Source: a virus. From it: 33,480 bases of DNA. The DNA is taken from the IMG/VR virus record IMGVR_UViG_3300028591_000144. One strand, given 5' to 3'. Below the pieces are notes generated by a model that saw nothing but the letters and a program-made list of their open reading frames with translations, was not told the origin of the DNA and did no database searches. Every line of letters begins with the position of its first letter. Position 1 is the stretch's first letter. Shown one piece after another: positions 2,942 to 28,871 of this stretch. The position numbers and the translations under genes were made by a program.

Positions 2942-2968
2942 GGTAGACGGAACGCCTTAAAGACTCCG
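2942..2968 (+). promoter_or_regulatory. box B copy 2
   Basis: Exact 27-mer. Confidence 0.75.
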
Positions 2969-2995
2969 ATACTTTAAAAGAAAGGAGAACGAAAA

Positions 2996-3079
2996 ATGCA
3001 AACTGTTATCGCAATTGCCGCGATTATTATCGCAAGTATCATCTTCTGCATCGCACATCTCTACAACATGATGCAATAA
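2996..3079 (+). CDS. small hydrophobic peptide (27 aa, MQTVIAIAAIIIASIIFCIAHLYNMMQ)
   Basis: SD AAAGGAGAA 8 nt upstream. Single predicted TM helix. Followed by hairpin. Confidence 0.5.
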   Translation: MQTVIAIAAIIIASIIFCIAHLYNMMQ

Positions 3080-3146
3080 GACCCACTGGGCCTCTTGGAA
3101 AGAGAATCCAAGAGGCCCAAAGAAAAACAAAAGTACTATACTTCGA

Positions 3147-3190
3147 TGCGCCGTGCTGGGTAGGGCTGGGTCGCAAATATCGAATTTAAC
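3147..3190 (+). repeat. Module-A G-triplet box copy 4
   Basis: gcgccgtgctgggtagggctgggtcgcaaatatcgaattt. Confidence 0.7.
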
Positions 3191-3442
3191 AAATAACAAA
3201 TAAGCGAAAAAGACAAAAACAAATTAAGCTAATCCAAAAGAGGAAAGAAAATTCCTATAATTAAAATGCTAGGCGCAAAGAGCCCCTATTTATTGGGGTT
3301 TTCAAGATATACGAAAAAAATATTGCAAAAAAAATTTTTTTGATATAAGTTGTAATTGTCCTCAGCAAGAAACAAAAAAACGGCACGCACCACCGCAAGG
3401 GCGTGAAACTCCGTAGGCTGTAGGACAGAAAGGAAGTACACC

Positions 3443-3709
3443 ATGATTACTATTTTAATTTGGCTCTGCAATGTCCTCGATAAGAGCTTACTGGTACACA
3501 ACTCCAATGTATCTGTCATGATCCCGACAAGCATTGGCATTTGTGAGGTTCGTCTGGACGCCTGGGTTGATTCCCTTGGCGCTACGCAAGAGCGCCTTTG
3601 GGTAATCTTTGATTATCTGGACGGGTCCGATGCGGATACCGCCAGCTTCACTAATAGAAATGTTGCAAAAGCATTCATTAGTGAATTACTCGAAATCGCA
3701 AATCACTAA
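3443..3709 (+). CDS. hypothetical protein (88 aa)
   Basis: ORF track. Conserved leader plus SD AAAGGAAG. Confidence 0.6.
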   Translation: MITILIWLCNVLDKSLLVHNSNVSVMIPTSIGICEVRLDAWVDSLGATQERLWVIFDYLDGSDADTASFTNRNVAKAFISELLEIANH

Positions 3710-3769
3710 ACTCAATAACGGGGTTGAACTTCTCTAAGAGGTTCAACCTCCATAAAAAGGAGATGTGAT

Positions 3770-4060
3770 ATGAAATATTTTATCCTCGGCGTCCAAGGTA
3801 ATCCAAAACATGGTATCGCCTATTCTGTATACACTTACCGCCGCGCGATGGAGCCGGCAAAAGCTAAAATTGAATGGGATAAGGTAAAAAATCGCAAAGA
3901 TGGCCGAGTAAAGTGCTATCTTGTTCCTGAAGATAAGATTGATCAATTCTATGAAAAAGTAGCTGAGATTAATCAGCGTATGCATAAAGAGTTAGAAACT
4001 CGTAAACGTGGTATAGAACTTCATAACTACGCTATAATGATGTACAATAATATGACCTGA
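3770..4060 (+). CDS. hypothetical basic protein (96 aa)
   Basis: ORF track. SD AAAGGAGATG. Preceded by intercistronic hairpin ggttgaac/gttcaacc. Confidence 0.65.
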   Translation: MKYFILGVQGNPKHGIAYSVYTYRRAMEPAKAKIEWDKVKNRKDGRVKCYLVPEDKIDQFYEKVAEINQRMHKELETRKRGIELHNYAIMMYNNMT

Positions 4061-4090
4061 GAGAGCACATCCCTCAGGTCATATTCCTTC

Positions 4091-4130
4091 GCACCGTGCT
4101 GGGAAGGGTGGGGTCACAAAACTCCGAATT
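4091..4130 (+). repeat. Module-A G-triplet box copy 5
   Basis: gcaccgtgctgggaagggtggggtcacaaaactccgaatt. Confidence 0.7.
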
Positions 4131-4354
4131 CAATAAAACAAAGATACGGTAAAAATACAAAAACAAAAGTTATTAATCTTTGATATAACTGAAAATTCCT
4201 ATATCTCTTTATATCCTTCTCAAACCCCTTGTATTTACTGGGCTTTTCAAGATCTTAAAAAAAAAATATTGCAAAAAAAATATTTTTAATATAAGTTGAA
4301 ATCGTACTCAGCCACAAACAAAAAAATTGCTGAGACAGAAAGTGAGATTCCAGC

Positions 4355-4540
4355 ATGGTTACTATCTATCTTTTCACCGCAGACACCAAGCAGGTCGGTA
4401 TCTATGAGCACTTTCAGGACGTAGGAAGTGCGTTTGACTTCGTCCGTGTTAAGTTCCTGCGGATGCTTCCCGGAGCTTTTGCCTGGCTCGTTTCTGAGGA
4501 TACTGGCGAGCTCCTCAAGGAAATCGACCTCAAGGCCTAA
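4355..4540 (+). CDS. hypothetical protein (61 aa)
   Basis: ORF track. Weak SD. Leader hairpin actcagc/gctgaga. Confidence 0.45.
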   Translation: MVTIYLFTADTKQVGIYEHFQDVGSAFDFVRVKFLRMLPGAFAWLVSEDTGELLKEIDLKA

Positions 4541-4552
4541 TCCTAAGCCCTG

Positions 4553-4572
4553 CCGGCGGGGTAAAACACCGG
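4553..4572 (+). promoter_or_regulatory. intercistronic hairpin ccgg-CGGGGTAAAACA-ccgg (box P)
   Basis: Same box precedes the paralog at 5898. Confidence 0.45.
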
Positions 4573-4612
4573 CAAAATCTAATAAATATTTTTAAAAAGG
4601 AGTTTAAACATT

Positions 4613-4837
4613 ATGGCAAAACGTAGAGTCTATTTCGAATCCGGCGAAATCGTTGAAGCAACTTGCGGCAAGAGCCAATTCAAGCAGATCATCAAGACCC
4701 ATTCTGAACCTGGCATGCGGATGTGGTTCCGGGACTGCCCTGAGTGGCGTCAAACCTATACGAATTGGAATAAGTGGTTCTTTGGATACTGGAAAAACGA
4801 GGACGGAATCCTCTGCCTCCAGAGATTCAAAAAATAA
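4613..4837 (+). CDS. hypothetical protein (74 aa), paralog of 5898-6122
   Basis: ORF track. SD AAAGGAG. Confidence 0.65.
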   Translation: MAKRRVYFESGEIVEATCGKSQFKQIIKTHSEPGMRMWFRDCPEWRQTYTNWNKWFFGYWKNEDGILCLQRFKK

Positions 4838-4847
4838 CTTAAAGATA

Positions 4848-4874
4848 GGTAGACGGAACGCCTTAAAGACTCCG
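4848..4874 (+). promoter_or_regulatory. box B copy 3
   Basis: Exact 27-mer. Confidence 0.75.
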
Positions 4875-4902
4875 TAATTTTAAAATAAAAAGAGGTGAAA
4901 AT

Positions 4903-5121
4903 ATGACTCTGAAAGAGATGGATCTTATTGCAATAGCAATGGACGATCCTAACTATAAATTTAAAACTGTAGGTACTCCATTAATTTTAAGATACAATAG
5001 CTATGGAGATACTACAAAGGTATATCATACTAATGATATACAAAGTGCAATAAAAGATTTCCGTATGACAACTTACAGTATTCAATATGGTACTCATCGA
5101 GGATATAGAGGGCTTATTTAA
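4903..5121 (+). CDS. hypothetical protein (72 aa), AT-rich
   Basis: ORF track. SD AAGAGGTGA. Confidence 0.6.
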   Translation: MTLKEMDLIAIAMDDPNYKFKTVGTPLILRYNSYGDTTKVYHTNDIQSAIKDFRMTTYSIQYGTHRGYRGLI

Positions 5122-5141
5122 GCCCTCTATTTTCTTCTTTT
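5108..5141 (+). terminator. rho-independent terminator
   Basis: agagggcttatttaagccctct followed by T-rich run. Confidence 0.7.
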
Positions 5142-5167
5142 GGTATAATACTTATATATATTTTTAA

Positions 5168-5212
5168 CGCACAGTGCTGGGTAGGGATGGGTCGCAAATA
5201 TCGAATTTGACA
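5168..5212 (+). repeat. Module-A G-triplet box copy 6
   Basis: cgcacagtgctgggtagggatgggtcgcaaatatcgaattt. Confidence 0.7.
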
Positions 5213-5461
5213 AAATAAAAATAACGCAAAAATACAAAAACAAAACTGATTAAACCAAAAGAAGAAGAAAAAATCCTATAATTTTTGATTAACTTGCATG
5301 AAGCCCCTAAATGCAAGGTTTTTAAAGATTTTTCAAAAAAAATATTGCAAAAAAAATTTTTTTGATATAAGTTGTAATTGTCCTCAGCAAGAAACAAAAA
5401 AAACGGCACGCACCGCAAGGGCGTGAAACTCCGTAGGCTGTAGGATAGAAAGGATTCCACT

Positions 5462-5827
5462 ATGTTGTACTACGCTTTTATTAATCTCTCTGACTCCTGC
5501 GTTATCCGCCTGCCGGATACTTATTCCAGCGTCATTTCCGCTTGCGGGGCTATTAACCGCTTTATTGATGCCAATGACAAGATTCACAGCGCCCTTGTCG
5601 TTAGCAAGACTGATGTGAAAGTCATGGTGGCTATGGACAGTGACGGCGGTCTTCTGATTGATCACATTCCTGCTGAAGAGTGGGAAACCCACTCTGTTGA
5701 AGAGTTCTATGGCGCACAAAAGACCATTCGAAAGGTAGGTGATACAATGTTCGGTTGCTATTATGAGGGCGATGTGTGCATTGCCCTTGTGAATCTCCAG
5801 ACTGGTGAGTATATCCCCGTGGAGTAA
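5462..5827 (+). CDS. hypothetical protein (121 aa)
   Basis: ORF track. Conserved leader. Confidence 0.6.
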   Translation: MLYYAFINLSDSCVIRLPDTYSSVISACGAINRFIDANDKIHSALVVSKTDVKVMVAMDSDGGLLIDHIPAEEWETHSVEEFYGAQKTIRKVGDTMFGCYYEGDVCIALVNLQTGEYIPVE

Positions 5828-5897
5828 TCCACAGCCCTGCCGGTGGGGCAAAACACCGGCACAATATAAAAAAAATTTTTTTGAAAGGAAGCAAAAA

Positions 5898-6122
5898 ATG
5901 AAAAAACGTAGAGTTTATTTCGAAGATGGTGAAATCGTTGAAGTAATGAGCGGGAAAGCTCACTTCAAAAGAGTGGTAAAAAATCATTCTGAACCCGACA
6001 TGCGGATGTGGTTCCGGGACTGCCCTGAGTGACGTCGAGCTCACGCAAACTGCGATAAGTGGCTCTTTGGATACTGGAAAAATGATGATGGAATCCTCTG
6101 CATCCAGAGATTCAAAAAATAA
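5898..6122 (+). pseudogene. paralog of 4613-4837 interrupted by in-frame TGA at 6030-6032
   Basis: The TGA sits at a codon that is TGG (Trp) in the paralog. The downstream 29 codons remain in frame and conserved (KW-FGYWKN-DGILC-QRFKK). Indicates recent nonsense mutation or programmed readthrough. Confidence 0.6.
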
Positions 6123-6131
6123 ATCTTGCGA

Positions 6132-6158
6132 GGTAGCCGGAACGCCTTAAAGACTCCG
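6132..6158 (+). promoter_or_regulatory. box B copy 4 (GGTAGCCGG variant)
   Basis: One substitution relative to consensus. Confidence 0.7.
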
Positions 6159-6194
6159 TAATATTTAAAAATTTAAAAAAAGGAGATTATTACT

Positions 6195-6359
6195 ATGATT
6201 CTAAAAGTTAATCCTGCTGAGATCTATGAAGATCTCAAAGTCGTAAAGGCTAAAATGGACGAATTTCTTCCTGGGACCTGGGAAGCGCACTATCTCCAGC
6301 GCTGGGCTGAAGCTCTCGAATTTCTTGAAGATGCCTATGGCGCACAGGAGGAGTGGTAA
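6195..6359 (+). CDS. hypothetical protein (54 aa, MILKVNPAEIYEDLKV...)
   Basis: Manual ORF, below track cutoff. SD AAAGGAGATT. Confidence 0.55.
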   Translation: MILKVNPAEIYEDLKVVKAKMDEFLPGTWEAHYLQRWAEALEFLEDAYGAQEEW

Positions 6360-6370
6360 AACACTCCTCG

Positions 6371-6397
6371 GGTAGACGGAACGCCTAAAAGACTCCG
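6371..6397 (+). promoter_or_regulatory. box B copy 5 (CCTAAAAG variant)
   Basis: One substitution relative to consensus. Confidence 0.7.
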
Positions 6398-6424
6398 AAT
6401 AATAAAAATAAAAGGAGATAGTGG

Positions 6425-6472
6425 ATGTTAACTATTATCATCTTCATGATTCTTGGATCGTTATTTGACTAA
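6425..6472 (+). CDS. tiny hydrophobic peptide MLTIIIFMILGSLFD (15 aa)
   Basis: SD AAGGAGATAG. Conserved in 3 copies (also 10447 and 12094), each followed by a terminator. Confidence 0.55.
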   Translation: MLTIIIFMILGSLFD

Positions 6473-6477
6473 TAATT

Positions 6478-6510
6478 AAAGGAAGGGTAAATCCCTTCCT
6501 TTTTTTTTTG
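6478..6510 (+). terminator. rho-independent terminator
   Basis: ggaagggtaaatcccttcc + T10. Confidence 0.85.
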
Positions 6511-6548
6511 ATAAATGAAAATCTACAATATTACTTTATATATTTCAA

Positions 6549-6590
6549 CCGCACGTGCTGGGTAGGGCTGGGCAGCAAAAGCCGAGTTTT
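6549..6590 (+). repeat. Module-A G-triplet box copy 7 (canonical CCGCACGTGCTGGGTAGGGCTGGGCAGCAAAAGCCGAG)
   Basis: Identical to copies 8 and 9. Confidence 0.75.
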
Positions 6591-6860
6591 CAATAATAAA
6601 AGTAAGCAAAAAACACAAAAACAAAAGCGATAATCCCAAGAGTAAAGATAAAATTCCTATAATTAAAACGCTCTGTATAAAAAGCCCTTATTTATTGGGC
6701 TTTTCAACATATGCTAAAAAAAATATTGCAAAAAAAATTTTTTTGATATAAGTTGTGATTGTCAGCGAGAAAACCGTTGTTAACATAGCAAGCAAGTAAG
6801 CAGACAAGTTGTGGTTTAATCAGTATTAAAAATTATTATTGAAAGGATTTTTTCCGCACT

Positions 6861-7328
6861 ATGAAAATTACTTCTATCTCTCAACTTATTGAAGCTCTGT
6901 ATGCTATCCTTGCGATTCTTGACTCTATCTTTCGTGACCCCGTAGATACTGAAGCCATTAGCGATTACGTATACGAAAACGTCTTGGAAGCTTTGCGTAA
7001 ACAGCGCAAACAGTATATTTATACTGAATCTCCTTATCAGGTTATAGAGGATTTTGATGCTGATGATAGCAATAGCATTAAAATTGATGGCAAAAGACAT
7101 TTCTTCCCTGCCTATTATCAAGAGCAACTTCATTTCCTGAATTGGTTTTACTCAGATAAACGGCACTATGAATTTGATCAGGATATTCGAAAAGCAGAGA
7201 ACATCTCTAAAGATGTTGACGAATGTCTTGAAGCTCTTAACCGTGTAATTGCTGGCGACTTAAATGATGAGATTTATGAAATCATTGGCAAGTTAAACGA
7301 CTTGCGAGATAAATATAATCTCAAATAA
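6861..7328 (+). CDS. hypothetical protein (155 aa)
   Basis: ORF track. SD GAAAGGAT. Confidence 0.65.
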   Translation: MKITSISQLIEALYAILAILDSIFRDPVDTEAISDYVYENVLEALRKQRKQYIYTESPYQVIEDFDADDSNSIKIDGKRHFFPAYYQEQLHFLNWFYSDKRHYEFDQDIRKAENISKDVDECLEALNRVIAGDLNDEIYEIIGKLNDLRDKYNLK

Positions 7329-7336
7329 TTGCTAAA

Positions 7337-7363
7337 GGTAGACGGAACGCCTTAAAGACTCCG
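7337..7363 (+). promoter_or_regulatory. box B copy 6
   Basis: Exact 27-mer. Confidence 0.75.
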
Positions 7364-7402
7364 CAACTTATAAAATACATTTTTGAAAGGACTTTTCTCA
7401 TC

Positions 7403-7726
7403 ATGTTTGAAAACATCAATAAGCACTCCGCTGGTTTCTTCGCTGTTGACATCGCTAATCTTGCCACTAAAGTGGGGGCCTTGTATGAAACTGCCAAAGC
7501 CCATTATGATGAAGTGTACACCGCCCATCCCGATGACTCCGATGATGAAGCCTTTGACCTTTGGTACGATGAGCAGGATGAAGCTTTTGAGTCTTATGAA
7601 ACCTTTTCTCAGCTTGTAGACTTGATCGATGATATCAAAGAGTTGAATGTCGACAGCTGGGAAGAGCTTAGTGCAAAACTCGATCTTCTGGCTGACGCTG
7701 TCGAAAGCTTAGGTTTAGACGATTAA
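7403..7726 (+). CDS. highly acidic small protein (107 aa), DNA-mimic-like composition
   Basis: ORF track. SD GAAAGGAC. D/E-rich. Confidence 0.65.
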   Translation: MFENINKHSAGFFAVDIANLATKVGALYETAKAHYDEVYTAHPDDSDDEAFDLWYDEQDEAFESYETFSQLVDLIDDIKELNVDSWEELSAKLDLLADAVESLGLDD

Positions 7727-7734
7727 CTCTAACA

Positions 7735-7761
7735 GGTAGACGGAACGCCTTAAAGACTCCG
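7735..7761 (+). promoter_or_regulatory. box B copy 7
   Basis: Exact 27-mer. Confidence 0.75.
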
Positions 7762-7800
7762 CAATTTTATAAAATACATTTTTGAAAGGATTCTCTTATT

Positions 7801-7989
7801 ATGACAACTAAAACTTTTATCTTTATTGTAGGCGATCATGAATTCATTAGCAATGAGCCTTTTGGCCCTATGTTTAAAGAGGCTCGCCAGCTTGCTAATG
7901 ACCTCAGTCTTCCTCTTTATAGAAAGAAGATTGAAGAATCTTTAGATGAATACCATCCCCAGTCAGGCTTCTTTACTGCCGTAAAATAG
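7801..7989 (+). CDS. hypothetical protein (62 aa)
   Basis: ORF track. SD GAAAGGAT. Confidence 0.6.
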   Translation: MTTKTFIFIVGDHEFISNEPFGPMFKEARQLANDLSLPLYRKKIEESLDEYHPQSGFFTAVK

Positions 7990-7998
7990 AGAACTAAA

Positions 7999-8025
7999 GG
8001 TAGCCGGAACGCCTTAAAGACTCCG
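7999..8025 (+). promoter_or_regulatory. box B copy 8 (GGTAGCCGG variant)
   Basis: One substitution relative to consensus. Confidence 0.7.
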
Positions 8026-8064
8026 CAATTTTATAAAATACATTTTTGAAAGGAAGTAAACAAA

Positions 8065-22863: not shown

Positions 22864-22904
22864 TAATTAAAAATAAATTATAAAGATAAGGGGCTGTCTT
22901 TAAG

Positions 22905-22943
22905 GCGGCTCCTTTGCGCGCGTTCCCTGCGCAAAGGAGCCGA
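22905..22943 (+). repeat. hairpin-C family member
   Basis: ggcggctcctttgcgcgc-gttccc-tgcgcaaaggagccg. Confidence 0.7.
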
Positions 22944-23003
22944 GTTTAAGTTATTGTAAAAAAAGCATAATTTTTTATATTTATTTTTGTATAATTTAAC
23001 ATA

Positions 23004-23032
23004 TTGCATTTTTCCTAATATTATAGTATAAT
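23004..23032 (+). promoter_or_regulatory. sigma70-type promoter TTGCAT-17-TATAAT
   Basis: Hexamers read from sequence. Confidence 0.7.
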
Positions 23033-23064
23033 AAGATCAAAGAATAAAAAAAAGGAGATAAAAA

Positions 23065-23217
23065 ATGTATTATACAATTCTCTATTATAAAGATTGGCCT
23101 GTGCATACTTCTAAAAAGTTTGAAACTTGGGAAGAGGCTAATAACTGGGGAAAAGAACACATTAGGAAGAAACACGGTTCAAATAAATATAAATGGTATA
23201 AAATAAAAGCAGATTAA
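23065..23217 (+). CDS. basic Trp/Tyr-rich small protein (50 aa)
   Basis: SD AAAAGGAGATAAAAA. Manual ORF. Confidence 0.5.
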   Translation: MYYTILYYKDWPVHTSKKFETWEEANNWGKEHIRKKHGSNKYKWYKIKAD

Positions 23218-23278
23218 AAAACTGCTTTTATTTATACATCGAATCAAAAAGAAAAATAAAAAAATCTTAAAAAACTAC

Positions 23279-23307
23279 TTGACAAATTGTCAGGACTATA
23301 CTATAAT
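23279..23307 (+). promoter_or_regulatory. sigma70-type promoter TTGACA-17-TATAAT
   Basis: Hexamers read from sequence. Confidence 0.8.
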
Positions 23308-23341
23308 GAAATCACAAAAGAGATAAAGGAGATAAAAAAAA

Positions 23342-23506
23342 ATGAAAGTAAAAGAATTGATCGAACTGCTTAAGACCTATGATGAAGATACTACAGTTTA
23401 TGTTTGGGACGAGACAGGATATTATGGGAAAAAAATTATAGTAAATAATCAGAATTATAAGTTTACAGAAGAAAAAGCTATTCTTTTAGATCACCTTGAT
23501 TTTTAA
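23342..23506 (+). CDS. hypothetical protein (54 aa), N-terminus paralogous to 24786
   Basis: SD AAAGGAGATAAAAAAAA. MKVKELIELLKTYDED matches MTVKELMNILSKYDED. Confidence 0.55.
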   Translation: MKVKELIELLKTYDEDTTVYVWDETGYYGKKIIVNNQNYKFTEEKAILLDHLDF

Positions 23507-23517
23507 TAAAAAACTTA

Positions 23518-23546
23518 TTGACAAATAGTCCGGTCTGTACTATAAT
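23518..23546 (+). promoter_or_regulatory. sigma70-type promoter TTGACA-17-TATAAT
   Basis: Hexamers read from sequence. Confidence 0.8.
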
Positions 23547-23580
23547 ATAGATAGAAAGCAAGAGAAAAGGAGATAAAAAA

Positions 23581-23853
23581 ATGGATTTTTTTGAACTTGT
23601 CACAATAGAACCTGTTTATGGTCTTTGCCATTATTATTACTTTTATCCTGTTGGGGTACATCATACATGGTATTTGACTCTTGATAGCAACTATCCTAGT
23701 AAGTTGCTGATGTTAATTAAAGACAGAAATGAAACGCCCCTTTATTTAACCAAAATTTCTTTCTTTCAGTATATTAAAAATAAGTATCTACGAAAAGCAA
23801 CGAGCCGTTTCTTTTATGGAAAACGTATAAATTGGGAAAAAGAGAAACTTTAA
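23581..23853 (+). CDS. hypothetical protein (90 aa)
   Basis: ORF track. SD AAAAGGAGATAAAAAA. Confidence 0.65.
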   Translation: MDFFELVTIEPVYGLCHYYYFYPVGVHHTWYLTLDSNYPSKLLMLIKDRNETPLYLTKISFFQYIKNKYLRKATSRFFYGKRINWEKEKL

Positions 23854-23881
23854 AAAAGTTTCTCTTTTTTAAAAAAAAGTA

Positions 23882-23910
23882 TTGACGAATGACCGGGCCT
23901 GTGCTATAAT
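23882..23910 (+). promoter_or_regulatory. sigma70-type promoter TTGACG-17-TATAAT
   Basis: Hexamers read from sequence. Confidence 0.75.
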
Positions 23911-23942
23911 GAAATTACAAAAGAGAAAAGGAGATAAAAAAA

Positions 23943-24098
23943 ATGAAAAAGTATATTATCACTTATCGTTCTTTTAAAACCCACTGGGATAAAGAAGTCT
24001 ATACTGAAAAAGAAAAAGAGATAGCAGAATGGCGTTTCAATTCTTTAATGGAATGTGAAAATGCTGATAATGTAAAAATGGAAATTAGAGAAGATTAA
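23943..24098 (+). CDS. hypothetical protein (51 aa)
   Basis: SD AAAAGGAGATAAAAAAA. Manual ORF. Confidence 0.55.
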   Translation: MKKYIITYRSFKTHWDKEVYTEKEKEIAEWRFNSLMECENADNVKMEIRED

Positions 24099-24127
24099 AA
24101 AAGTCTTCTCTTTTTTTTAAAAATATA

Positions 24128-24156
24128 TTGACAAATAACCAGTCTTGTGCTATACA
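24128..24156 (+). promoter_or_regulatory. sigma70-type promoter TTGACA-17-TATACA
   Basis: Hexamers read from sequence. Followed immediately by terminator 24157-24188. Confidence 0.6.
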
Positions 24157-24188
24157 GACCCTTACACTGAGTAAGGGTCATTTTTTTT

Positions 24189-24250
24189 GGCAACTTACGC
24201 TCAGCCGCGCGCTGGCCGGCGTCCCTGGGTCAGCGCGCGGTTTTTGACGT
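24189..24250 (+). other. GC-rich (about 75 percent) island with hairpin ccgcgcgctg...cagcgcgcgg + TTTTT
   Basis: Composition sharply unlike flanks. Non-coding. Lies between two promoters. Confidence 0.5.
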
Positions 24251-24298
24251 GTAGTATAATCCAGAAAATTTTTGTGCATTTTGACGAACGATTTAGAG

Positions 24299-24327
24299 TT
24301 GACAACTACGCCCGAATGTGGTATAGT
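24299..24327 (+). promoter_or_regulatory. sigma70-type promoter TTGACA-17-TATAGT (TG-extended)
   Basis: Hexamers read from sequence. Confidence 0.7.
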
Positions 24328-24358
24328 ATAAGCACAAAAAGAAAAGGAGATACAAATC

Positions 24359-24559
24359 ATGGAAGAATTTAATAATTTTGAAATCTTTTTCCGTACTCGT
24401 AATAGTTGTGTTATTAAGGTGCCTAAAAATCTTAAAAATAAAAATGAGATTAGAGAATTTATTATTGATAAAATTATTAATGATGAATTAGAAAGCTGGA
24501 TTGATAAATGGTTTGATTTTGAAATTGAAGATTTTGAAATTGTAGAAGAGGAAGAATAA
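24359..24559 (+). CDS. acidic protein (66 aa)
   Basis: ORF track. SD AAAAGGAGATAC. Confidence 0.65.
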   Translation: MEEFNNFEIFFRTRNSCVIKVPKNLKNKNEIREFIIDKIINDELESWIDKWFDFEIEDFEIVEEEE

Positions 24560-24562
24560 AAA

Positions 24563-24766
24563 ATGTATAAAACAGTATGGAGCATTTATTATAATGGAGA
24601 CAAAACAGAGCTGACTTGGTATCATTTTGGTTCTGCTCCTAAATTCCCTACTTGGTACATGGAAGCAAATACAGTTTATGAGATTGAAATGATTTGGAAT
24701 GTGAAACTTGTTTTCAATTTCAATACATTTATGAAGTGTCTGACTCATACTTACATTATAAAATAA
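24563..24766 (+). CDS. hypothetical protein (67 aa)
   Basis: ORF track. SD AGAGGAAGAATA. Confidence 0.6.
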   Translation: MYKTVWSIYYNGDKTELTWYHFGSAPKFPTWYMEANTVYEIEMIWNVKLVFNFNTFMKCLTHTYIIK

Positions 24767-24785
24767 AAAAAAAGGAGATAATAAA

Positions 24786-24992
24786 ATGACTGTTAAAGAA
24801 TTAATGAATATCCTGAGCAAGTATGATGAGGATATGATTGTCCGCGTAATTGGCGGCGAAAGTGAATCCGGTGAGTGGGCCGAACTGGAAGTCGGAAAGG
24901 AAATCAAAAGGCCTTTTATCGATTGCGAAGGTATAGAGAGATGGTTTTACACTGACTTTGATGGTGAAGTCATCCTGGAAGAGAGCTACTAA
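24786..24992 (+). CDS. acidic protein (68 aa)
   Basis: ORF track. SD AAAAGGAGATAAT. Confidence 0.65.
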   Translation: MTVKELMNILSKYDEDMIVRVIGGESESGEWAELEVGKEIKRPFIDCEGIERWFYTDFDGEVILEESY

Positions 24993-25027
24993 GCTCTCTT
25001 CTTTTGCTTCTAGTTGATAAAAAATAA

Positions 25028-25056
25028 TTGACTTTTATTTTTTTTTATGCTATACT
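25028..25056 (+). promoter_or_regulatory. sigma70-type promoter TTGACT-17-TATACT
   Basis: Hexamers read from sequence. Confidence 0.75.
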
Positions 25057-25088
25057 AAATTATAGTATAATTATAAGGAGTTAAATTA

Positions 25089-25295
25089 ATGAAATTGTTT
25101 CAGGTAAAAATAAAGTATACTTTTGTGAATAGTAAAACGACTTATTTTAGCATTAATTATGTCCTTGCAGAGAATATTGACCACATTGAAGAAATAATTA
25201 AAAACTGGATTACAGAAGAAGACTCTGAAGCTATAATTTTAAACTTTGAGGCGCATGAATTGCCAATGATTGAACAGGTATTGCCGGGCTGGTAA
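25089..25295 (+). CDS. hypothetical protein (68 aa)
   Basis: ORF track. SD TAAGGAGTTA. Confidence 0.6.
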   Translation: MKLFQVKIKYTFVNSKTTYFSINYVLAENIDHIEEIIKNWITEEDSEAIILNFEAHELPMIEQVLPGW

Positions 25296-25328
25296 TACCT
25301 GCTTTTTTTATATTTAGAAAAAAAACTA

Positions 25329-25357
25329 TTGACTTTTTATTTATTATATGTTATTAT
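25329..25357 (+). promoter_or_regulatory. sigma70-type promoter TTGACT-17-TATTAT
   Basis: Hexamers read from sequence. Confidence 0.65.
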
Positions 25358-25390
25358 ATATATAAGATAAATAAAGGAGATAAAAAAATT

Positions 25391-25669
25391 ATGACTTTTA
25401 TTCTTAATAAGTGCTATGGTGGCTGGTCGATTTCTGATTTTGCTAAGGAACAGCTGGGCCTTGATTCTAACTACCCTGACAGGGATGAAGTAGATGAAAA
25501 GAAACTGGCAGAATTGATTAATGAGTATGGCTCTGAGAAGTGCTCTGGACGTAGTGCCTGGCTTAAAATAGTTGAAATCCCTGATAATGCTACCGATTGG
25601 GACATTGATGAGTATGATGGCATTGAAAGAATCGTCTATGTTATTGATGGGAAACTAAGGTATGCCTAA
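25391..25669 (+). CDS. acidic protein (92 aa)
   Basis: ORF track. SD AAAGGAGATAAAAAAATT. Confidence 0.65.
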   Translation: MTFILNKCYGGWSISDFAKEQLGLDSNYPDRDEVDEKKLAELINEYGSEKCSGRSAWLKIVEIPDNATDWDIDEYDGIERIVYVIDGKLRYA

Positions 25670-25677
25670 TTAAATAT

Positions 25678-25710
25678 AAAGAAGGAAGAAAATATTCTTC
25701 CTTCTTTTTA
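25678..25710 (+). terminator. rho-independent terminator
   Basis: gaaggaagaaaatattcttccttc + TTTTT. Confidence 0.8.
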
Positions 25711-25711
25711 A

Positions 25712-25750
25712 AGCGCTGGGTCTTCGAGTGCTTGCACCCGAAGACTCAGC
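25712..25750 (+). repeat. hairpin-C family member
   Basis: gcgctgggtcttcg-agtgcttgcacc-cgaagactcagcg + TCTTTAAG. Near-identical copy at 27272. Confidence 0.7.
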
Positions 25751-25812
25751 GTCTTTAAGCTTTTTATATAAAATGTACAATTTCCAGGATTATTTTTTGT
25801 ATAATATTACCT

Positions 25813-25841
25813 ATTGCTTTTTTCCTGAAATAGTAGTATAC
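25813..25841 (+). promoter_or_regulatory. sigma70-type promoter TTGCTT-17-TATACT driving a non-coding region
   Basis: Hexamers read from sequence. Confidence 0.6.
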
Positions 25842-25847
25842 TATAAT

Positions 25848-26135
25848 CGTTCCAAGGGAAATGCACTTAATCCTTGAGAACAGTGTGAATGGACAATACA
25901 CTTGACTTCGAACACACTATAATCAAAAGAAGATAGTGTTGACTTTGGGACTTTTACCAGTTTATATTTTTGTTTCAAAAGGCAAACAAAGGGAGAATAA
26001 ACTGGCGCTCGGCAGGCGTTTAGTGCAAAACTGCCTGCCGATGTGTGAAATGCGCTTACCAAAAAAATAGAAAAAAAGATTAAAAAAATTGGAAAAACGC
26101 ACTTAACTTTTGTTTTTAATAATCATATAGAAAGT
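25848..26135 (+). ncRNA. candidate non-coding RNA locus (family 2, copy 1), upstream of tRNA-like gene
   Basis: Own promoter and no credible ORF. Starts ATAATCGTTCCAAGGGAAA. Contains stem-loop ggcaggc...gcctgcc. Homologous start at 27401. Confidence 0.45.
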
Positions 26136-26214
26136 GAGAAGAACCTTTGACAGGCAAAGGTCACTGTTCGAGTCAGTAAAGTGGTCACGATGGGTTCAAC
26201 TCCCATTCTTCTCA
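26136..26214 (+). tRNA. tRNA-like gene, best fit anticodon CGA (Ser). 79 nt, no encoded CCA
   Basis: Cloverleaf folded by hand. Perfect 7-bp acceptor gagaaga/tcttctc. D-arm cttt-gacaggc-aaag. Anticodon loop TTCGAGT (U33, R37). T-arm atggg-TTCAACT-cccat. Variable arm of 11 nt is atypical for Ser. Confidence 0.55.
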
Positions 26215-26230
26215 AAAAACAAAAAGATAC

Positions 26231-26259
26231 TTGATAAATTACCAAAAGTATGGTATAAT
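26231..26259 (+). promoter_or_regulatory. sigma70-type promoter TTGATA-17-TATAAT (TG-extended) with about 125-nt purine/pyrimidine-tract leader
   Basis: Hexamers read from sequence. Leader contains agagagaagagagaa and ttcttctctctctt complementary tracts. Confidence 0.7.
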
Positions 26260-26384
26260 GAATATGTAAGATAAAGAGAGAAGAGAGAAAGGTCTTAATT
26301 AAAAAGTCAAAAAGACGCCGCTGCAATGTTCAGCTGGTTGACAACGTTCTTCTCTCTCTTACAAAAAACAAAGGAGAAACTAAA

Positions 26385-26576
26385 ATGGCTATCGCACATG
26401 TTACTTTTACTTGTTATTACAATTATGAAGTAGAAATTGACGATACTCTTTATGATGAAGACCCCTGGGCGGCTGAAGAGCAAGCTATTGAGGATGCCTA
26501 TGAACAGTATAAAGCTATTAAAAGTCGTCCTGTTGCAGATACTACATACGATGAAGTAGAAGTTGAATTTGAGTAA
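26385..26576 (+). CDS. highly acidic protein (63 aa)
   Basis: ORF track. SD AAAGGAGAAAC. Confidence 0.65.
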   Translation: MAIAHVTFTCYYNYEVEIDDTLYDEDPWAAEEQAIEDAYEQYKAIKSRPVADTTYDEVEVEFE

Positions 26577-26621
26577 ATGACTTCTTTAGTGAAGGATGTA
26601 ATAACTTAAAAAATCTAAAAC

Positions 26622-26700
26622 AATTTTGTCAGAGGGAGAAATAATGAGGCAGTAGTAGAGTAAGACCTCAACAAGGTTTAATAAACGCCCTCTGACAAAA
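26622..26700 (+). other. long stem-loop (13-bp stem ttttgtcagaggg/ccctctgacaaaa, about 51-nt loop)
   Basis: Inverted repeat read from sequence. No T-run on either strand. Confidence 0.5.
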
Positions 26701-26714
26701 AATTTAAAAAGATC

Positions 26715-26743
26715 TTGACAACATTTTAAAGGTATGCTATAAT
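26715..26743 (+). promoter_or_regulatory. sigma70-type promoter TTGACA-17-TATAAT
   Basis: Hexamers read from sequence. Confidence 0.8.
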
Positions 26744-26780
26744 AAAATTACAAGAAAAAAAAGAGAAAAGGAGATAAAAA

Positions 26781-27251
26781 ATGAATAATGAAGTTATTAA
26801 AGCAATGAATAAAAAGTCTCCAAAAGAAAGCGATTTCAAAAAGTGGTGGAAAAAGAACGGTTATAAAGTTAGGCGGATTGTGTTCTTCCCCATATGGGCC
26901 TTTGTGTGGAGCAAAGATAAAATCAAAGCCTATCTCAATTCCCGCACCGAGTGGAGCGAAAGCAAAGCTAATGAAATCCTTAACTACTATGTTCCCCGTT
27001 TTGCTTGTTGGGATAATGAAGATAAAATTTTTTATTTTTTCGATAATGGATACGGATGGTCAATGGATTTCGCTAAAAGATATTTAAAACTTAAAGACCG
27101 TAGATTCTGGAAACTCTATGCCAGTTGGGGCGGCGCTCAAGTTCGTGATTATCTTATCAATAATTTTGAACTTGATGGATTTACAAAAGAAGTCGGCAAT
27201 TGCTATGATGGCTGGACTGAAATTACTTTCAGAATGAAAGCAGAGGAGTAA
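26781..27251 (+). CDS. Trp-rich basic protein (156 aa)
   Basis: ORF track. SD AAAGGAGATAAAAA. Confidence 0.7.
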   Translation: MNNEVIKAMNKKSPKESDFKKWWKKNGYKVRRIVFFPIWAFVWSKDKIKAYLNSRTEWSESKANEILNYYVPRFACWDNEDKIFYFFDNGYGWSMDFAKRYLKLKDRRFWKLYASWGGAQVRDYLINNFELDGFTKEVGNCYDGWTEITFRMKAEE

Positions 27252-27268
27252 AAATCCTCTGCTTTTTT
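27243..27268 (+). terminator. rho-independent terminator
   Basis: gcagagga-gtaaaaat-cctctgc + TTTTTT. Confidence 0.8.
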
Positions 27269-27271
27269 AAA

Positions 27272-27310
27272 GCGCTGGGTCTTCGAGCGCTTGCACCCGA
27301 AGACCCAGCG
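27272..27310 (+). repeat. hairpin-C family member
   Basis: gcgctgggtcttcg-agcgcttgcacc-cgaagacccagcg + TCTTTAAG. Confidence 0.7.
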
Positions 27311-27371
27311 TCTTTAAGTTTTTTATATAAAATGTACAATTTCCAGGATGATTTTTTGTATAATATTACCT

Positions 27372-27400
27372 ATTGCTTTTTTCCTAAAATAGTAGTATAT
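27372..27400 (+). promoter_or_regulatory. sigma70-type promoter TTGCTT-17-TATATT driving a non-coding region
   Basis: Hexamers read from sequence. Confidence 0.6.
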
Positions 27401-27690
27401 TATAATTGTCCCAAGGAAAAGGGAAGTGATATCACCTGAGTAGCAAAAGGACTGGACAGCAAGCTTTCAGTGGTTAGAACTGTCAAGTACAAAAAAATTT
27501 CGAACTGATGGCTTTTAGGAGTATCGTCTTGCCAAGTGACGAGAGATTGTTGGAAAGAAAATAATCTCTAAAGGAATTGGTTGACCTTTAGATTTATGGT
27601 TAAGTAGATATTACTGTGGGTGACAGGTTTTGATTTCCAAGAAGGAAAACGAAAATTGACAGGAACCCTAAAAAATCCAAAAAAATCTAT
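27401..27690 (+). ncRNA. candidate non-coding RNA locus (family 2, copy 2)
   Basis: Own promoter and no ORF. Starts ATAATTGTCCCAAGGAAAAGG. Contains a tRNA D-arm-like fragment TCAGTGGTTAGAACTG but no complete cloverleaf. Confidence 0.4.
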
Positions 27691-27718
27691 TGACAAGCAG
27701 TAATTTATGTGGTATACT
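27690..27718 (+). promoter_or_regulatory. sigma70-type promoter TTGACA-17-TATACT (TG-extended)
   Basis: Hexamers read from sequence. Confidence 0.8.
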
Positions 27719-27752
27719 TAAATTACAAAAAAGATAAGAGAGGTAGCGCAAG

Positions 27753-27953
27753 ATGATGAAAATTTTTGAAGTTAAGGTTTATGTGGATGATGGATGGCAG
27801 AGATTCTATACAACCCACAAAGTCCTTGCTAACTGTAAAGTAAGAGCTGGTCAGCTGGCATGTGATTACTGGCAAAAGAAAGACAGCACCAACATTGTCA
27901 AGCTTCAAAGCGTTGAAGAGTTGGAAAACTTTACTGAGGGGGTAATTCTGTAA
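27753..27953 (+). CDS. hypothetical protein (66 aa)
   Basis: ORF track. SD AAGAGAGGTAG. Confidence 0.6.
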   Translation: MMKIFEVKVYVDDGWQRFYTTHKVLANCKVRAGQLACDYWQKKDSTNIVKLQSVEELENFTEGVIL

Positions 27954-28141
27954 TGGCACTTAGTTTAGAAAATCCTACTGTAAGATATTTAATTATTAAG
28001 CTGGCTGAGCTTGCGAAGGCTTATCAGGAGCCGTATGATGAGCATGATATGCCTGCTTACGAAAACAATAAAGAACTTTTCCCCAGGTGGGCAGTTTATA
28101 AAGAAATGCTTATTGATGCATGGAATGGTAAGCTTGATTAA
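27953..28141 (+). CDS. hypothetical protein (62 aa)
   Basis: ORF track. TAATG overlap with upstream gene. Confidence 0.6.
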   Translation: MALSLENPTVRYLIIKLAELAKAYQEPYDEHDMPAYENNKELFPRWAVYKEMLIDAWNGKLD

Positions 28142-28191
28142 GCTTACCATTCTGCCCGGACGCCATTCATAATTTATTTACAATTTCCCTA

Positions 28192-28220
28192 TTGACATTT
28201 TAAGAGTAATGTGCTATATT
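28192..28220 (+). promoter_or_regulatory. sigma70-type promoter TTGACA-17-TATATT (TTCATAATTTATTTACAATT upstream family)
   Basis: Hexamers read from sequence. Confidence 0.75.
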
Positions 28221-28250
28221 ATAATCACCAAGAGAAAAGGAGAATAAAAA

Positions 28251-28397
28251 ATGACGCCATACTGGAAATTAAATTTCATTGAAGCCTATAAACTACATTT
28301 ACGAGCAAGCGCTTTATTTAGCGTTCGACCCTCTAACCCAATAACTTTTCTCTTCCGTTGGATTAAAAAAAGAAAGGAAAATAAAGATGAAAACTAA
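28251..28397 (+). CDS. basic small protein (48 aa)
   Basis: SD AAAAGGAGAATAAAAA. Overlaps start of next gene in another frame. Manual ORF. Confidence 0.45.
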   Translation: MTPYWKLNFIEAYKLHLRASALFSVRPSNPITFLFRWIKKRKENKDEN

Positions 28398-28656
28398 TAA
28401 TCATGAAATTACTGTTATTACTGGTTGCCCTTTCTGCGGCCTTATCCATGAAGTTGAGGTCAACGAGATGGATTATCTCGACTGGCAGGACGATGTTCTG
28501 GTTCAGGATGCATTCCCCTATCTGGACGCCAATGAACGTGAGATGCTGATTTCTGGCATCTGCCCTGACTGCTGGGATAAAATGTTTGGCTCTGATGAAG
28601 AGCCTGATCCCGACGAAAGAGACATTCATGGAAATACTTTTGGGGGTGAAAGATAA
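28387..28656 (+). CDS. zinc-ribbon small protein (89 aa), paralog of the N-terminal domain of 17426-17995
   Basis: ORF track. Motifs CPFCG...VNEMDYLDW...EREMLISGICPDCWD shared with 17426. Confidence 0.7.
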   Translation: MKTNNHEITVITGCPFCGLIHEVEVNEMDYLDWQDDVLVQDAFPYLDANEREMLISGICPDCWDKMFGSDEEPDPDERDIHGNTFGGER

Positions 28657-28865
28657 TGAAAATTGGTATCATTGGTGGCGTTCGTGTCCATGTAGGCGAT
28701 GCTATTCAAGCCCTTGGTCATACTTACACTGTGAGCAAAATTATTTATCAAGATTGCTTTAACGGCAATTATGACGTTGAGTTTCTTGACCCTTCTGGTG
28801 GCTATCACCATTGGAAATCTGAATTTGATGGGGGATGCATTATCCCTAATAACGGAGAGGAGTAA
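28656..28865 (+). CDS. hypothetical protein (69 aa)
   Basis: ORF track. TAATG overlap. Confidence 0.6.
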   Translation: MKIGIIGGVRVHVGDAIQALGHTYTVSKIIYQDCFNGNYDVEFLDPSGGYHHWKSEFDGGCIIPNNGEE

Positions 28866-28871
28866 AAAAAA

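What the first reader, a model, noticed from the sequence alone, without database searches (positions are those of the whole stretch)
25848..27690. Second pair of homologous long non-coding leaders (25848-26135 and 27401-27690)
Both follow a TTGCTT-17-TATA(C/T)T promoter and the same hairpin-C variant. Both start ATAAT(C/T)GT(T/C)CCAAGG(G/A)AA, contain no plausible ORF for about 290 nt, and end at another strong promoter. The first is followed by the tRNA-like gene. The second contains a tRNA D-arm-like fragment (TCAGTGGTTAGAACTG) but no complete tRNA, perhaps a decayed tRNA. This looks like a duplicated ncRNA/tRNA cassette in two stages of decay.
Basis: seen in the sequence. Interest (0 to 1): 0.5.

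Follow-up and report, generated by a model that had tools for sequence, protein, structure and literature searches.

The report
Two phage pseudoknot RNAs, shared promoter
The two "leaders" are two different conserved, structured non-coding RNAs of an uncultivated phage; only the promoter cassette in front of them is a recent duplicate, nothing is a decaying tRNA, and neither RNA matches a described RNA family.

Summary
The sequence features are real. What the two loci share is a 157-nt control cassette (25705-25861 and 27264-27420, 94% identical). It holds a long-stem hairpin, an AT-rich block, a TTGCTT-17-TATAYT promoter and the first ~15 transcribed bases. Beyond that the two bodies align at chance level.

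Both bodies are nevertheless conserved structured RNAs.
- RNA A (25849-~26060) has relatives on four other metagenomic phage contigs. 33 pairs are 99% paired and 11 carry compensatory changes.
- RNA B (27408-~27690) has six relatives. 36 pairs are 88% paired and 10 are compensatory.

Neither matches Rfam 15. Both have the same core: an H-type pseudoknot, an A-rich linker and a GUUU...AAAC hairpin. A profile of family A weakly but non-randomly hits family B, so they are probably distant relatives, not duplicates in decay.

The "D-arm fragment" in B is the pseudoknot strands. The tRNA-like gene (26135-26215) is a separate module, 79/81 identical in another phage that lacks RNA A, and it scores below the Rfam tRNA cut-off.

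Function is untested. Most likely these are RNA genes made from their own promoters. The main rival is a put-like leader that acts in cis. Interest is moderate.

The parts
25678..25709 (+). Ordinary intrinsic terminator of the upstream 92-aa gene (unique sequence)
   Evidence: Hairpin AAAGAAGGAAGAA/TTCTTCCTTCTTT plus a T run.
25705..25861 (+). Control cassette, copy 1: long hairpin, AT-rich block, promoter, first ~15 transcribed bases
   Evidence: 94% identical to 27264-27420. It is one of about 11 related cassettes in the window; the others are 61-73% identical.
25713..25752 (+). 'Hairpin C', copy 1: 14-bp stem GCGCUGGGUCUUCG/CGAAGACUCAGCGU, plus a 3-bp cap with a CUUG loop, then UCUUUAAGCUUUUUAU
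   Evidence: Read from the sequence. Other cassettes keep a hairpin at this position with different, complementary arms.
25814..25842 (+). Promoter of RNA A: TTGCTT, 17 nt, TATACT
   Evidence: The consensus scan missed it because the -35 matches only 3 of 6.
25849..26060 (+). RNA A, structured core
   Evidence: Homologous to L027:603-819, L110:891-1107, L136:2349-2559 and L137:2778-2988. 33 pairs, 99.4% paired, 11 compensatory against 2 or fewer in slid controls. Folding z = -3.5. Helices: P1 25849-57/25943-51; S1 25882-87/25913-18; S2 25898-901/25936-39; P4 25969-75/25984-90; P5 26009-18/26032-41; possible second pseudoknot 25862-66/26023-27.
26061..26134 (+). A-rich tail of unit A with a degenerate -35 (CACTTAACT)
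   Evidence: Aligns to the A-rich upstream element and TTGACA promoter of L136.
26135..26215 (+). tRNA-like gene, a separate module
   Evidence: ARAGORN calls Ser(cga). Rfam tRNA scores 25.0 bits against a gathering score of 29. 79/81 identical in L140:3847-3950 while the flanks have diverged. ARAGORN does not call the L140 copy.
26231..26259 (+). Strong promoter (TTGATA-17-TATAAT, TG) of the structured 5' UTR and 63-aa gene
27264..27420 (+). Control cassette, copy 2 (hairpin C 27272-27311; promoter TTGCTT 27373-78, TATATT 27396-401)
27408..27690 (+). RNA B, a divergent member of a second RNA family
   Evidence: The family profile (which includes this sequence) scores it at E=5e-50, alongside L119, L122, L124, L121, L123 and L071. 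Family structure is 88% paired with 10 compensatory pairs. Helices: S1 27455-59/27480-84; S2 27467-70/27505-08; helix 4 27531-35/27577-81; P4-like hairpin 27543-51/27560-68.
27467..27482 (+).
   Evidence: No tRNA signal.
27690..27718 (+). Strong promoter (TTGACA-17-TATACT, TG) of the 66-aa/62-aa genes
   Evidence: Conserved in L115 and L117.

Best explanation
Shown:
- The window carries two separate transcription units. Their only recent shared part is a 157-nt control cassette: a long-stem hairpin, an AT-rich block, a TTGCTT-17-TATAYT promoter and the first ~15 transcribed bases.
- Each cassette drives a different conserved, structured, non-coding RNA. RNA A is about 205 nt and RNA B about 280 nt.
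- Both fold around the same kind of core: an H-type pseudoknot (stems S1 and S2), an A-rich linker, and a GUUU...AAAC hairpin (P4).
- They belong to two families found in related uncultivated phages and absent from Rfam. The families are probably distant relatives.
- The tRNA-like gene after A is a third, independent conserved module.

Inferred:
- The RNAs themselves are the gene products.
- They start at the cassette promoter, and in A the 5' end GUUCCAAGG is locked into helix P1.
- In this window they have no terminator. Their 3' ends would therefore come from processing (RNase P at the tRNA-like element for A, cleavage in the A-rich tail for B) or the transcript reads on into the next gene. 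In L027 and L110 the same RNA ends at intrinsic terminators.
- The near-identity of the two cassettes reflects duplication or gene conversion of promoter modules, which recombine at the conserved start motif.

The cellular target is unknown.
For: Cassette against body:
- 94% identity over 157 nt, then chance-level similarity.

RNA A:
- nhmmer hit to L027 at E=0.003.
- Covariance-model hits of 191-238 bits in L027, L110, L136 and L137.
- 99.4% of 165 cells paired and 11 compensatory pairs, against 0-2 in slid controls.
- Five of the ten differences between the window and L136 fall in the 4-bp S2 helix and keep it paired: ACAC/GUGU becomes GUGC/GCGC.
- S1 is AGUGUG/CACACU here and CGCAGG/CCUGCG in L027.
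- Folding z = -3.5.

RNA B:
- Six relatives, E from 1e-16 to 1e-79.
- 88% paired against 28-49% slid, with 10 compensatory pairs.
- Its position relative to genes differs between phages.

Other points:
- No coding potential.
- No Rfam match.
- A occurs with a different promoter and no tRNA-like gene in L136/L137, and with terminators in L027/L110.
- The tRNA-like gene is 79/81 identical in L140, which lacks A.
Against: - There are no expression data, so transcription, RNA ends and stability are all inferred.
- Neither RNA has a terminator in the window or in most relatives, and each runs straight into the next promoter. That fits a 5' leader as well as it fits an RNA gene.
- The families are small: five A sequences in three lineages and seven B sequences. 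The covariation is convincing by counts but was not tested with a phylogeny-aware method.
- Window B does not form helices 1-3 of its family as aligned.
- P1 never varies, so it is untested.
- No target or partner was identified.
Confidence: 0.6

Rival explanations
1. The RNAs are leader modules that act in cis on their own transcript. The folded pseudoknot RNA would alter the RNA polymerase that made it, as the put RNA of phage HK022 does, or would stabilise the transcript. Transcripts from the cassette promoter would then read through ordinary terminators, and the long-stem hairpins at the cassette borders would stop them.
For: - Each RNA starts at the transcription start. In the window and most relatives it has no terminator and runs into the next promoter and gene.
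- The downstream gene differs between phages, which suits a function independent of the gene.
- Each unit border carries an ordinary terminator followed by a hairpin with a stem of 14 bp or more. Stems of 14 bp or more make terminators resistant to processive antitermination in Bacillus subtilis (PMC10325885).
- putRNA is a precedent for a nascent RNA near a promoter that acts alone on the polymerase (PMC9378689).
Against: - There is no sequence or model similarity to any antitermination RNA in Rfam.
- In L027 and L110, RNA A is followed at once by two terminators and then by a gene with its own promoter. That looks like a free-standing RNA gene.
- The downstream genes have their own strong promoters.
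- Nothing was tested functionally.
Confidence: 0.25
2. One reading: one ncRNA/tRNA cassette was duplicated, and the two copies are at different stages of decay, with B holding a decayed tRNA.
For: - The upstream 157 nt are near-identical.
- A tRNA-like gene follows A.
- B contains a string that resembles a D arm.
Against: - The bodies align at chance level.
- Each body is conserved in other phages with compensatory changes.
- No tRNA signal exists in B.
- The D-arm-like string is the pseudoknot strands.
- A and the tRNA-like gene occur apart from each other.
Confidence: 0.04
3. The stretches are non-functional spacers between tandem promoters, or remnants of dead protein genes. One candidate is an inverted fragment of the 45-aa 'MYEYE...YGYSRQDLARRYP' gene family inside B.
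For: - A 25-nt near-identity exists between B (about 27524-27547) and the antisense strand of that gene in L001/L002.
- Tandem promoters with short spacers are common in this window.
Against: - The antisense match is not significant (p=0.06 within 33 kb). The same block is conserved within the B RNA family, where it includes the 5' strand of helix 4.
- Translated searches find nothing.
- Compensatory changes argue for selection on RNA structure.
Confidence: 0.05

Closest known systems
HK022 put RNA and other processive-antitermination RNAs such as EAR (PMC9378689; EAR from my own knowledge)
   Same: A structured RNA with no ORF, encoded directly downstream of a phage early promoter. It is independent of which gene follows, in a genome region dense with terminators.
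   Different: put is about 70 nt with two stem-loops, from lambdoid coliphages. Here the RNAs are 205-280 nt with an H-type pseudoknot and extra hairpins. There is no sequence or model similarity, and antitermination is untested.
ROOL and GOLLD, large ornate RNAs of phages and prophages (PMC5737381, PMC12286853)
   Same: Orphan structured RNAs of unknown function. According to those papers they are often phage-borne, come from rumen or Firmicutes settings, and lie near tRNA genes.
   Different: They are 500-800 nt. Their Rfam models do not hit the window or the relatives. The RNAs here are much smaller and sit between tandem promoters.
Stable small RNAs in the phage T4 tRNA gene cluster (species 1 and 2, also called RNA C and D); from my own knowledge
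   Same: Small stable RNAs of unknown function, encoded next to and co-transcribed with phage tRNA genes and released by tRNA-processing enzymes. This matches the layout of A plus the tRNA-like gene.
   Different: RNA A also occurs without any tRNA-like neighbour.
Canonical bacterial or phage tRNA-Ser
   Same: 26135-26215 has a 7-bp acceptor stem, a T arm with a UUCAACU loop, and an anticodon-type loop UUCGAGU.
   Different: It scores below the Rfam cut-off (25.0 against 29 bits). The D region is unusual, a 6-bp stem with a 5-nt loop or a 4-bp stem with a 9-nt loop. The variable region is a weak 11 nt instead of the long Ser arm. The L140 copy loses an anticodon-stem pair and ARAGORN does not call it.
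Tandem early promoters such as T7 A1/A2/A3 (from my own knowledge)
   Same: Several strong host-type promoters in a row, read in the same direction.
   Different: Here the sequence between the promoters is itself a conserved folded RNA.

Membership tests
Canonical tRNA (element 26135-26215) | A cloverleaf accepted by a tRNA finder | tested here: met
   ARAGORN calls tRNA-Ser(cga).
Canonical tRNA (element 26135-26215) | Score at or above the Rfam RF00005 gathering score | tested here: not met
   25.0 bits against 29. It is absent at the gathering threshold.
Canonical tRNA (element 26135-26215) | Anticodon stem kept in orthologues | tested here: inconclusive
   L140 differs at 2 of 81 positions. 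A to G gives a G-U pair in the acceptor stem. U to C breaks an anticodon-stem pair in the ARAGORN fold but falls in a loop in the minimum-energy fold. ARAGORN finds no tRNA in L140.
Canonical tRNA (element 26135-26215) | Aminoacylation and decoding | not testable with these tools
   This needs biochemistry.
tRNA remnant inside leader B | Any tRNA-model signal | tested here: not met
   ARAGORN finds none. There is no RF00005 hit at E<=10. The D-arm-like string belongs to the pseudoknot.
Any described RNA family (Rfam 15) | A hit at the gathering score | tested here: not met
   Window. Permissive scans of the window region, L027, L110 and L122-L124 give only chance-level hits.
A and B as one RNA family | Direct sequence similarity of the two window copies | tested here: not met
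   p=0.12, 0.29 and 0.67.
A and B as one RNA family | B recognised by the covariance model of A | tested here: not met
   No hit at E<=10. The model was built from only two sequences.
A and B as one RNA family | Profile-level similarity between the families | tested here: inconclusive
   The family-A HMM hits L122 at 6.5 bits and L124 at 4.2 bits, colinearly. 0 and 2 of 3000 dinucleotide shuffles reach these scores. Window A against non-window B members gives p=0.002-0.06. The reverse search found nothing.
A and B as one RNA family | Same core layout (S1, S2 pseudoknot, A-rich linker, P4 hairpin) | tested here: met
   By inspection of the joint alignments A10 and A11. This was not scored statistically across both families.
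Riboswitch or gene-specific cis-regulatory leader | Constant association with one downstream gene, plus an expression platform | tested here: not met
   The downstream gene differs between phages. A separate promoter lies between each RNA and the gene. No terminator/antiterminator or Shine-Dalgarno-sequestering stem was seen.
put-like processive antitermination RNA | Encoded just downstream of a promoter, upstream of terminators | tested here: met
put-like processive antitermination RNA | Raises terminator read-through in cis | not testable with these tools
   This needs transcription assays.
Free-standing small-RNA gene | Own promoter and own terminator | tested here: inconclusive
   A promoter is present everywhere. 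A terminator is present only in L027 and L110. None is present in the window, L136, L119 or L122.

The most novel reading that the evidence does not exclude
RNA A and RNA B are members of an undescribed superfamily of pseudoknotted phage RNAs placed next to promoters. Like HK022 put, they would act on the polymerase that transcribes them. Transcripts from the cassette promoters would read through ordinary terminators, and the hairpins with stems of 14 bp or more at each cassette border would act as antitermination-resistant insulators. That would be an RNA-only timing switch in large Firmicutes-type phages.
Probability: 0.15. Interest if true: 0.75.

Novelty: new variant of a known kind. Interest (0 to 1): 0.5.

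Why it matters
If these RNAs are real products, this phage group devotes part of its early region to a set of promoter-driven folded RNAs and tRNA-like elements that no database describes. Other gene-free, promoter-driven stretches in relatives point the same way, for example L113:1160-3000 and L002:17560-18330. Two points have practical value. First, there are now two alignments with covariation support that can seed searches of all metagenomes. Second, there is a concrete, testable idea (put-like antitermination, with long-stem insulators) for how a phage with a promoter and two terminators around nearly every small gene schedules expression. For annotation, the lesson is that near-identical promoter cassettes in such genomes do not imply that the sequences they drive are related.

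Tried and rejected
- GenBank phages: no match by megablast, blastn or tblastn.
- IMG/VR pattern scans for internal blocks of A and B returned only L027, L071 and chance coding hits.
- The single metagenome scan added only L110. The GTDB genome scan found nothing.
- The covariance model of A found no further members in 0.83 Mb of related loci and did not hit B.
- B as an inverted pseudogene of, or antisense RNA to, the 45-aa gene family: alignment p=0.06, and only 'LARRY' at the protein level. Rejected as unsupported and kept as a note.
- Translated comparison of 16,719 ORFs from all loci against A and B found nothing above noise.
- An alternative local helix in A, CCAAGG with CCUUGR at +20, is weakened by the L136/L137 substitutions.
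- The promoter-like site inside A (25939-25968) is the conserved P1 3' strand, and it has no -10 in L027.
- Pfam and PHROGs gave no informative function for neighbouring proteins.
- A literature search for the start motif returned only unrelated primer sequences.
- Two scripts timed out and gave no result.
Full report
**Setting**

The window is an AT-rich stretch packed with very small + strand genes. Nearly every gene has its own sigma-70-type promoter and terminator. It matches nothing in GenBank phages.

Its 156-aa protein (26781-27251) has relatives on IMG/VR contigs, one of them 239.5 kb long. A 7.4-kb ENA contig is 99.97% identical to window 22903-30283. Homologues of the neighbouring 63-aa and 66-aa proteins lie on metagenomic contigs of up to 247 kb.

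I infer a large uncultivated phage with Firmicutes-style promoters. Some record names (STEW19, WILK20) suggest rumen or gut data sets. That reading rests on my own knowledge, not on a tool result.

**The observation**

The two loci share a 157-nt repeat, 25705-25861 and 27264-27420, at 94% identity. It consists of:
- a hairpin with a 14-bp stem and a 3-bp cap (25713-25752), followed by a U-rich tract;
- an AT-rich block;
- a TTGCTT-17-TATA(C/T)T promoter;
- the start motif ATAATYGTYCCAAGGRAA.

This is one of about eleven related cassettes in the window. Each follows the ordinary terminator of the upstream gene. Each has a long hairpin whose arms differ between copies but stay complementary. 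The other copies are only 61-73% identical, so the A/B pair is a recent duplication or gene conversion.

Identity ends about 15 nt into the transcript. Beyond that the two ~270-nt bodies align at chance level: local p=0.12 and global p=0.29, and core against core p=0.67. Neither body has a credible ORF.

B ends at a strong promoter. A ends at the tRNA-like gene, with only a degenerate -35 in front of it. In L136 the orthologous spot holds a full TTGACA-17-TATAAT promoter.

**The start motif is generic**

The motif occurs in 104 IMG/VR stretches. In most of these it sits directly after a TTGACA-17-TATAcT promoter. The consensus is ATAATTGTTCCAAGGGAAC, a 5-bp inverted repeat. In most cases an ordinary 5' UTR and a protein gene follow. 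It therefore does not mark an RNA family.

**RNA A (25849-~26060)**

- nhmmer linked it to L027 at E=0.003. A pattern scan added L110. Neighbour-gene look-ups added L136 and L137, which are 94% identical to the window copy.
- On the five-sequence alignment, 33 pairs are 99.4% paired. Eleven pairs show compensatory changes, against 0-2 when partners are slid. No shuffle reaches the covariation score.
- Five of the ten differences between the window and L136 fall in one 4-bp helix and preserve it: ACAC/GUGU becomes GUGC/GCGC. L027 has ACAU/AUGU there. This helix (S2) crosses helix S1, which is AGUGUG/CACACU here and CGCAGG/CCUGCG in L027. Together they form an H-type pseudoknot.
- P4 is UUUGUUU/AAACAAA here, CCCGUUU/AAACGGG in L027 and CUUGUUU/AAACAAG in L110. 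P5 also covaries.
- A second long-range pairing, YGCAC with GUGCR in the P5 loop, has one covariation.
- P1 pairs the transcript's 5' end GUUCCAAGG with CUUUGGGAC. It never varies, so it is untested.
- Folding z = -3.5.
- L136 and L137 have a different promoter, lack the hairpin cassette, and carry a 101-aa gene downstream instead of the tRNA-like gene.
- L027 and L110 end the RNA with a CU-rich tract and two intrinsic terminators.

**RNA B (27408-~27690)**

- Homologues of the downstream 66-aa protein led to contigs where blastn matched the 3' part of B. A profile then found L119, L122, L124, L121, L123 and part of L071, at E from 1e-16 to 1e-79.
- On six sequences, 36 pairs are 88% paired against 28-49% when slid. 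Ten pairs are compensatory.
- The clearest helices are helix 4 (GCCAGA/UCUGGC against GUCAGA/UCUGAC) and the hairpin it encloses. That hairpin's stems differ completely between members.
- The window copy is the most divergent member and does not form family helices 1-3 as aligned.
- In L119, L122 and L121 the RNA lies upstream of a homologue of window gene 28387-28656; in L119 and L122 that is downstream of the 66-aa gene. In the window it lies upstream of the 66-aa gene. It therefore moves as a module.
- No relative of B has a terminator. Each runs into the next promoter.

**Relation between A and B**

Joint alignments show the same order of elements in both families:
- the S1 3' strand;
- an A-rich linker (AAAUCAAAAG, GCGAAUACCAAAU or AAGUACAAAAAAA);
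- the S2 3' strand;
- a spacer;
- a P4 hairpin with a conserved GUUU...AAAC inner stem. Window A reads UUUGUUUCAAAAGGCAAACAAA and L124 B reads CUUGUUUCAAAAGGAUAACAAG.

In window B, S1 is GACAG (27455-59) with CUGUC (27480-84), and S2 is UCAG (27467-70) with CUGA (27505-08). Other B members have GGGG/CCCC or AGGG/CCCU for S1 and CCAACA/UGUUGG for S2.

The family-A profile hits L122 at 6.5 bits and L124 at 4.2 bits, colinearly. Only 0 and 2 of 3000 dinucleotide shuffles reach these scores. Window A against non-window B members gives p=0.002-0.06. The reverse profile search and the covariance model of A found nothing.

I read this as probable distant homology that cannot be seen between the two window copies.

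**The tRNA-like gene**

- ARAGORN calls Ser(cga). Rfam gives 25.0 bits against a cut-off of 29.
- The acceptor stem and T arm are canonical. The D region and the variable region are not.
- L140, on a 247-kb contig, has the element at 79/81 identity directly upstream of the 63-aa homologue. Its flanks have diverged, it appears to have its own -10, and RNA A is absent.
- One change gives a G-U pair in the acceptor stem. The other breaks an anticodon-stem pair in the cloverleaf but lies in a loop of the minimum-energy fold. ARAGORN does not call the L140 copy.
- It is a conserved tRNA-like module whose status as a decoding tRNA is open.

**Mechanism**

Shown: two conserved folded RNAs, each starting at a promoter, with no coding potential, mobile relative to genes, and absent from Rfam.

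Inferred, and my best reading (confidence 0.6 for the whole statement): the RNAs are the products. Their 3' ends would be made by terminators where these exist, and by processing or read-through elsewhere.

The main rival (0.25) is a leader that acts in cis. In its boldest form it is put-like processive antitermination (PMC9378689). Two things fit that idea. Most copies lack a terminator. Each unit border carries an ordinary terminator followed by a hairpin with a stem of 14 bp or more, and such long stems resist antitermination in Bacillus (PMC10325885). The terminators placed directly after RNA A in L027 and L110 argue against it.

Decay of a duplicated cassette and junk spacer are poorly supported.

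**Novelty and verdict**

Nothing matches a described family. The general kind, orphan structured RNAs in phage early or tRNA regions, is known from ROOL and GOLLD (PMC5737381, PMC12286853) and from the T4 stable RNAs (my own knowledge). What differs here is the placement between tandem promoters, the pseudoknot core, and the coupling to a shuffled promoter cassette.

The finding as written is partly right. The real content is two new candidate RNA families, probably one superfamily, plus an independent tRNA-like module. Interest is moderate (0.5).

Noticed in passing
window 1610-11295: Twelve copies of AGGTAGACGGAACGCCTTAAAGACTCCG lie just upstream of ribosome-binding sites. Several other repeat families of 60-160 nt recur about every 1.1 kb, including GTGCTGGGTAGGGCTGGGCAGCAAAAGCCGAG and a terminator followed by a TTGCAAAAAAAA promoter (D1, D2, D5, D7, D9). 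This part of the window has a different cassette system from the region studied.
   Followed up: no
L004-L107 (IMG/VR); window 25843-25860 and 27402-27419: The motif ATAATTGTTCCAAGGGAAC, a 5-bp inverted repeat at the predicted transcript start, follows the -10 box of promoters on about 100 phage contigs, mostly in front of ordinary protein genes. It could be a 5'-terminal stabilising hairpin or an operator. It was not found in the literature search.
   Followed up: partly
window 12905-33000, eleven sites (e.g. 16393, 17121, 20333, 22170, 22913, 30254, 31846, 32846): A repeated intergenic cassette. An ordinary terminator is followed by a ~40-nt long-stem hairpin whose arms vary in a complementary way, then a conserved AT-rich block containing the inverted repeat ATTGTA-N7-TACAAT, then a TTGCAA-type promoter. 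Four of the eleven are followed by a non-coding stretch and a second, TTGACA-type promoter.
   Followed up: partly
window 31970-32430; L113:1495-1660: A third cassette (64% identical to the A/B cassette) drives another stretch that starts ATAATTGTCAAGGGG, followed by two more promoters in tandem. The 41-aa frame 31990-32115 has a 56% identical counterpart in L113, so this 'leader' may encode a small protein.
   Followed up: no
L113:1160-3000; L002:17560-18330; L120:1777-2000: These are gene-free 'RNA islands' in related phages. They hold chains of promoters, each driving a different non-coding stretch or tRNA-like element. One RNA family of about 300 nt is shared by L010, L040, L047, L098 and L113:2150-2450, and another by L025, L069 and L089. 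L120's leader again pairs its 5' GUUCCAAGG with a downstream CUUUGGAA.
   Followed up: no
L002:17800-17890: Two copies of a 35-nt direct repeat (ACCGAATCTGGTTGAAATAACCCAGTAGTTAGAGA) lie 13 nt apart behind their own promoter. Their nature is unknown.
   Followed up: no
window 27524-27547; L002:12084-12221; L001:12472-12609; window 13629-13766: A block of RNA B, conserved in its family, is nearly identical to the antisense strand of a 45-aa gene (MYEYEIRYLATGETDFLYGYSRQDLARRYP...) in the two closest IMG/VR relatives. The window has a paralogue of that gene at 13629-13766. The match is not significant on its own (p=0.06), but it could hint at antisense pairing.
   Followed up: partly
window 26262-26384 and 26614-26709: There are two further structured non-coding segments. 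One is the ~110-nt 5' UTR of the 63-aa gene, closed by AGAGAGAAGAGAGAA/TTCTTCTCTCTCTT. The other is a 13-bp stem, TTTTGTCAGAGGG...CCCTCTGACAAAA, enclosing about 50 nt between the 63-aa gene and the next promoter.
   Followed up: no
L001, L002, L027, L110, L113, L119, L120, L136 intergenic regions: The palindrome GCCCGGGC (often as CGCCCGGGCG) recurs at intergenic borders in relatives, usually between a terminator and the next promoter. In this window the same position is occupied by the long hairpins.
   Followed up: no
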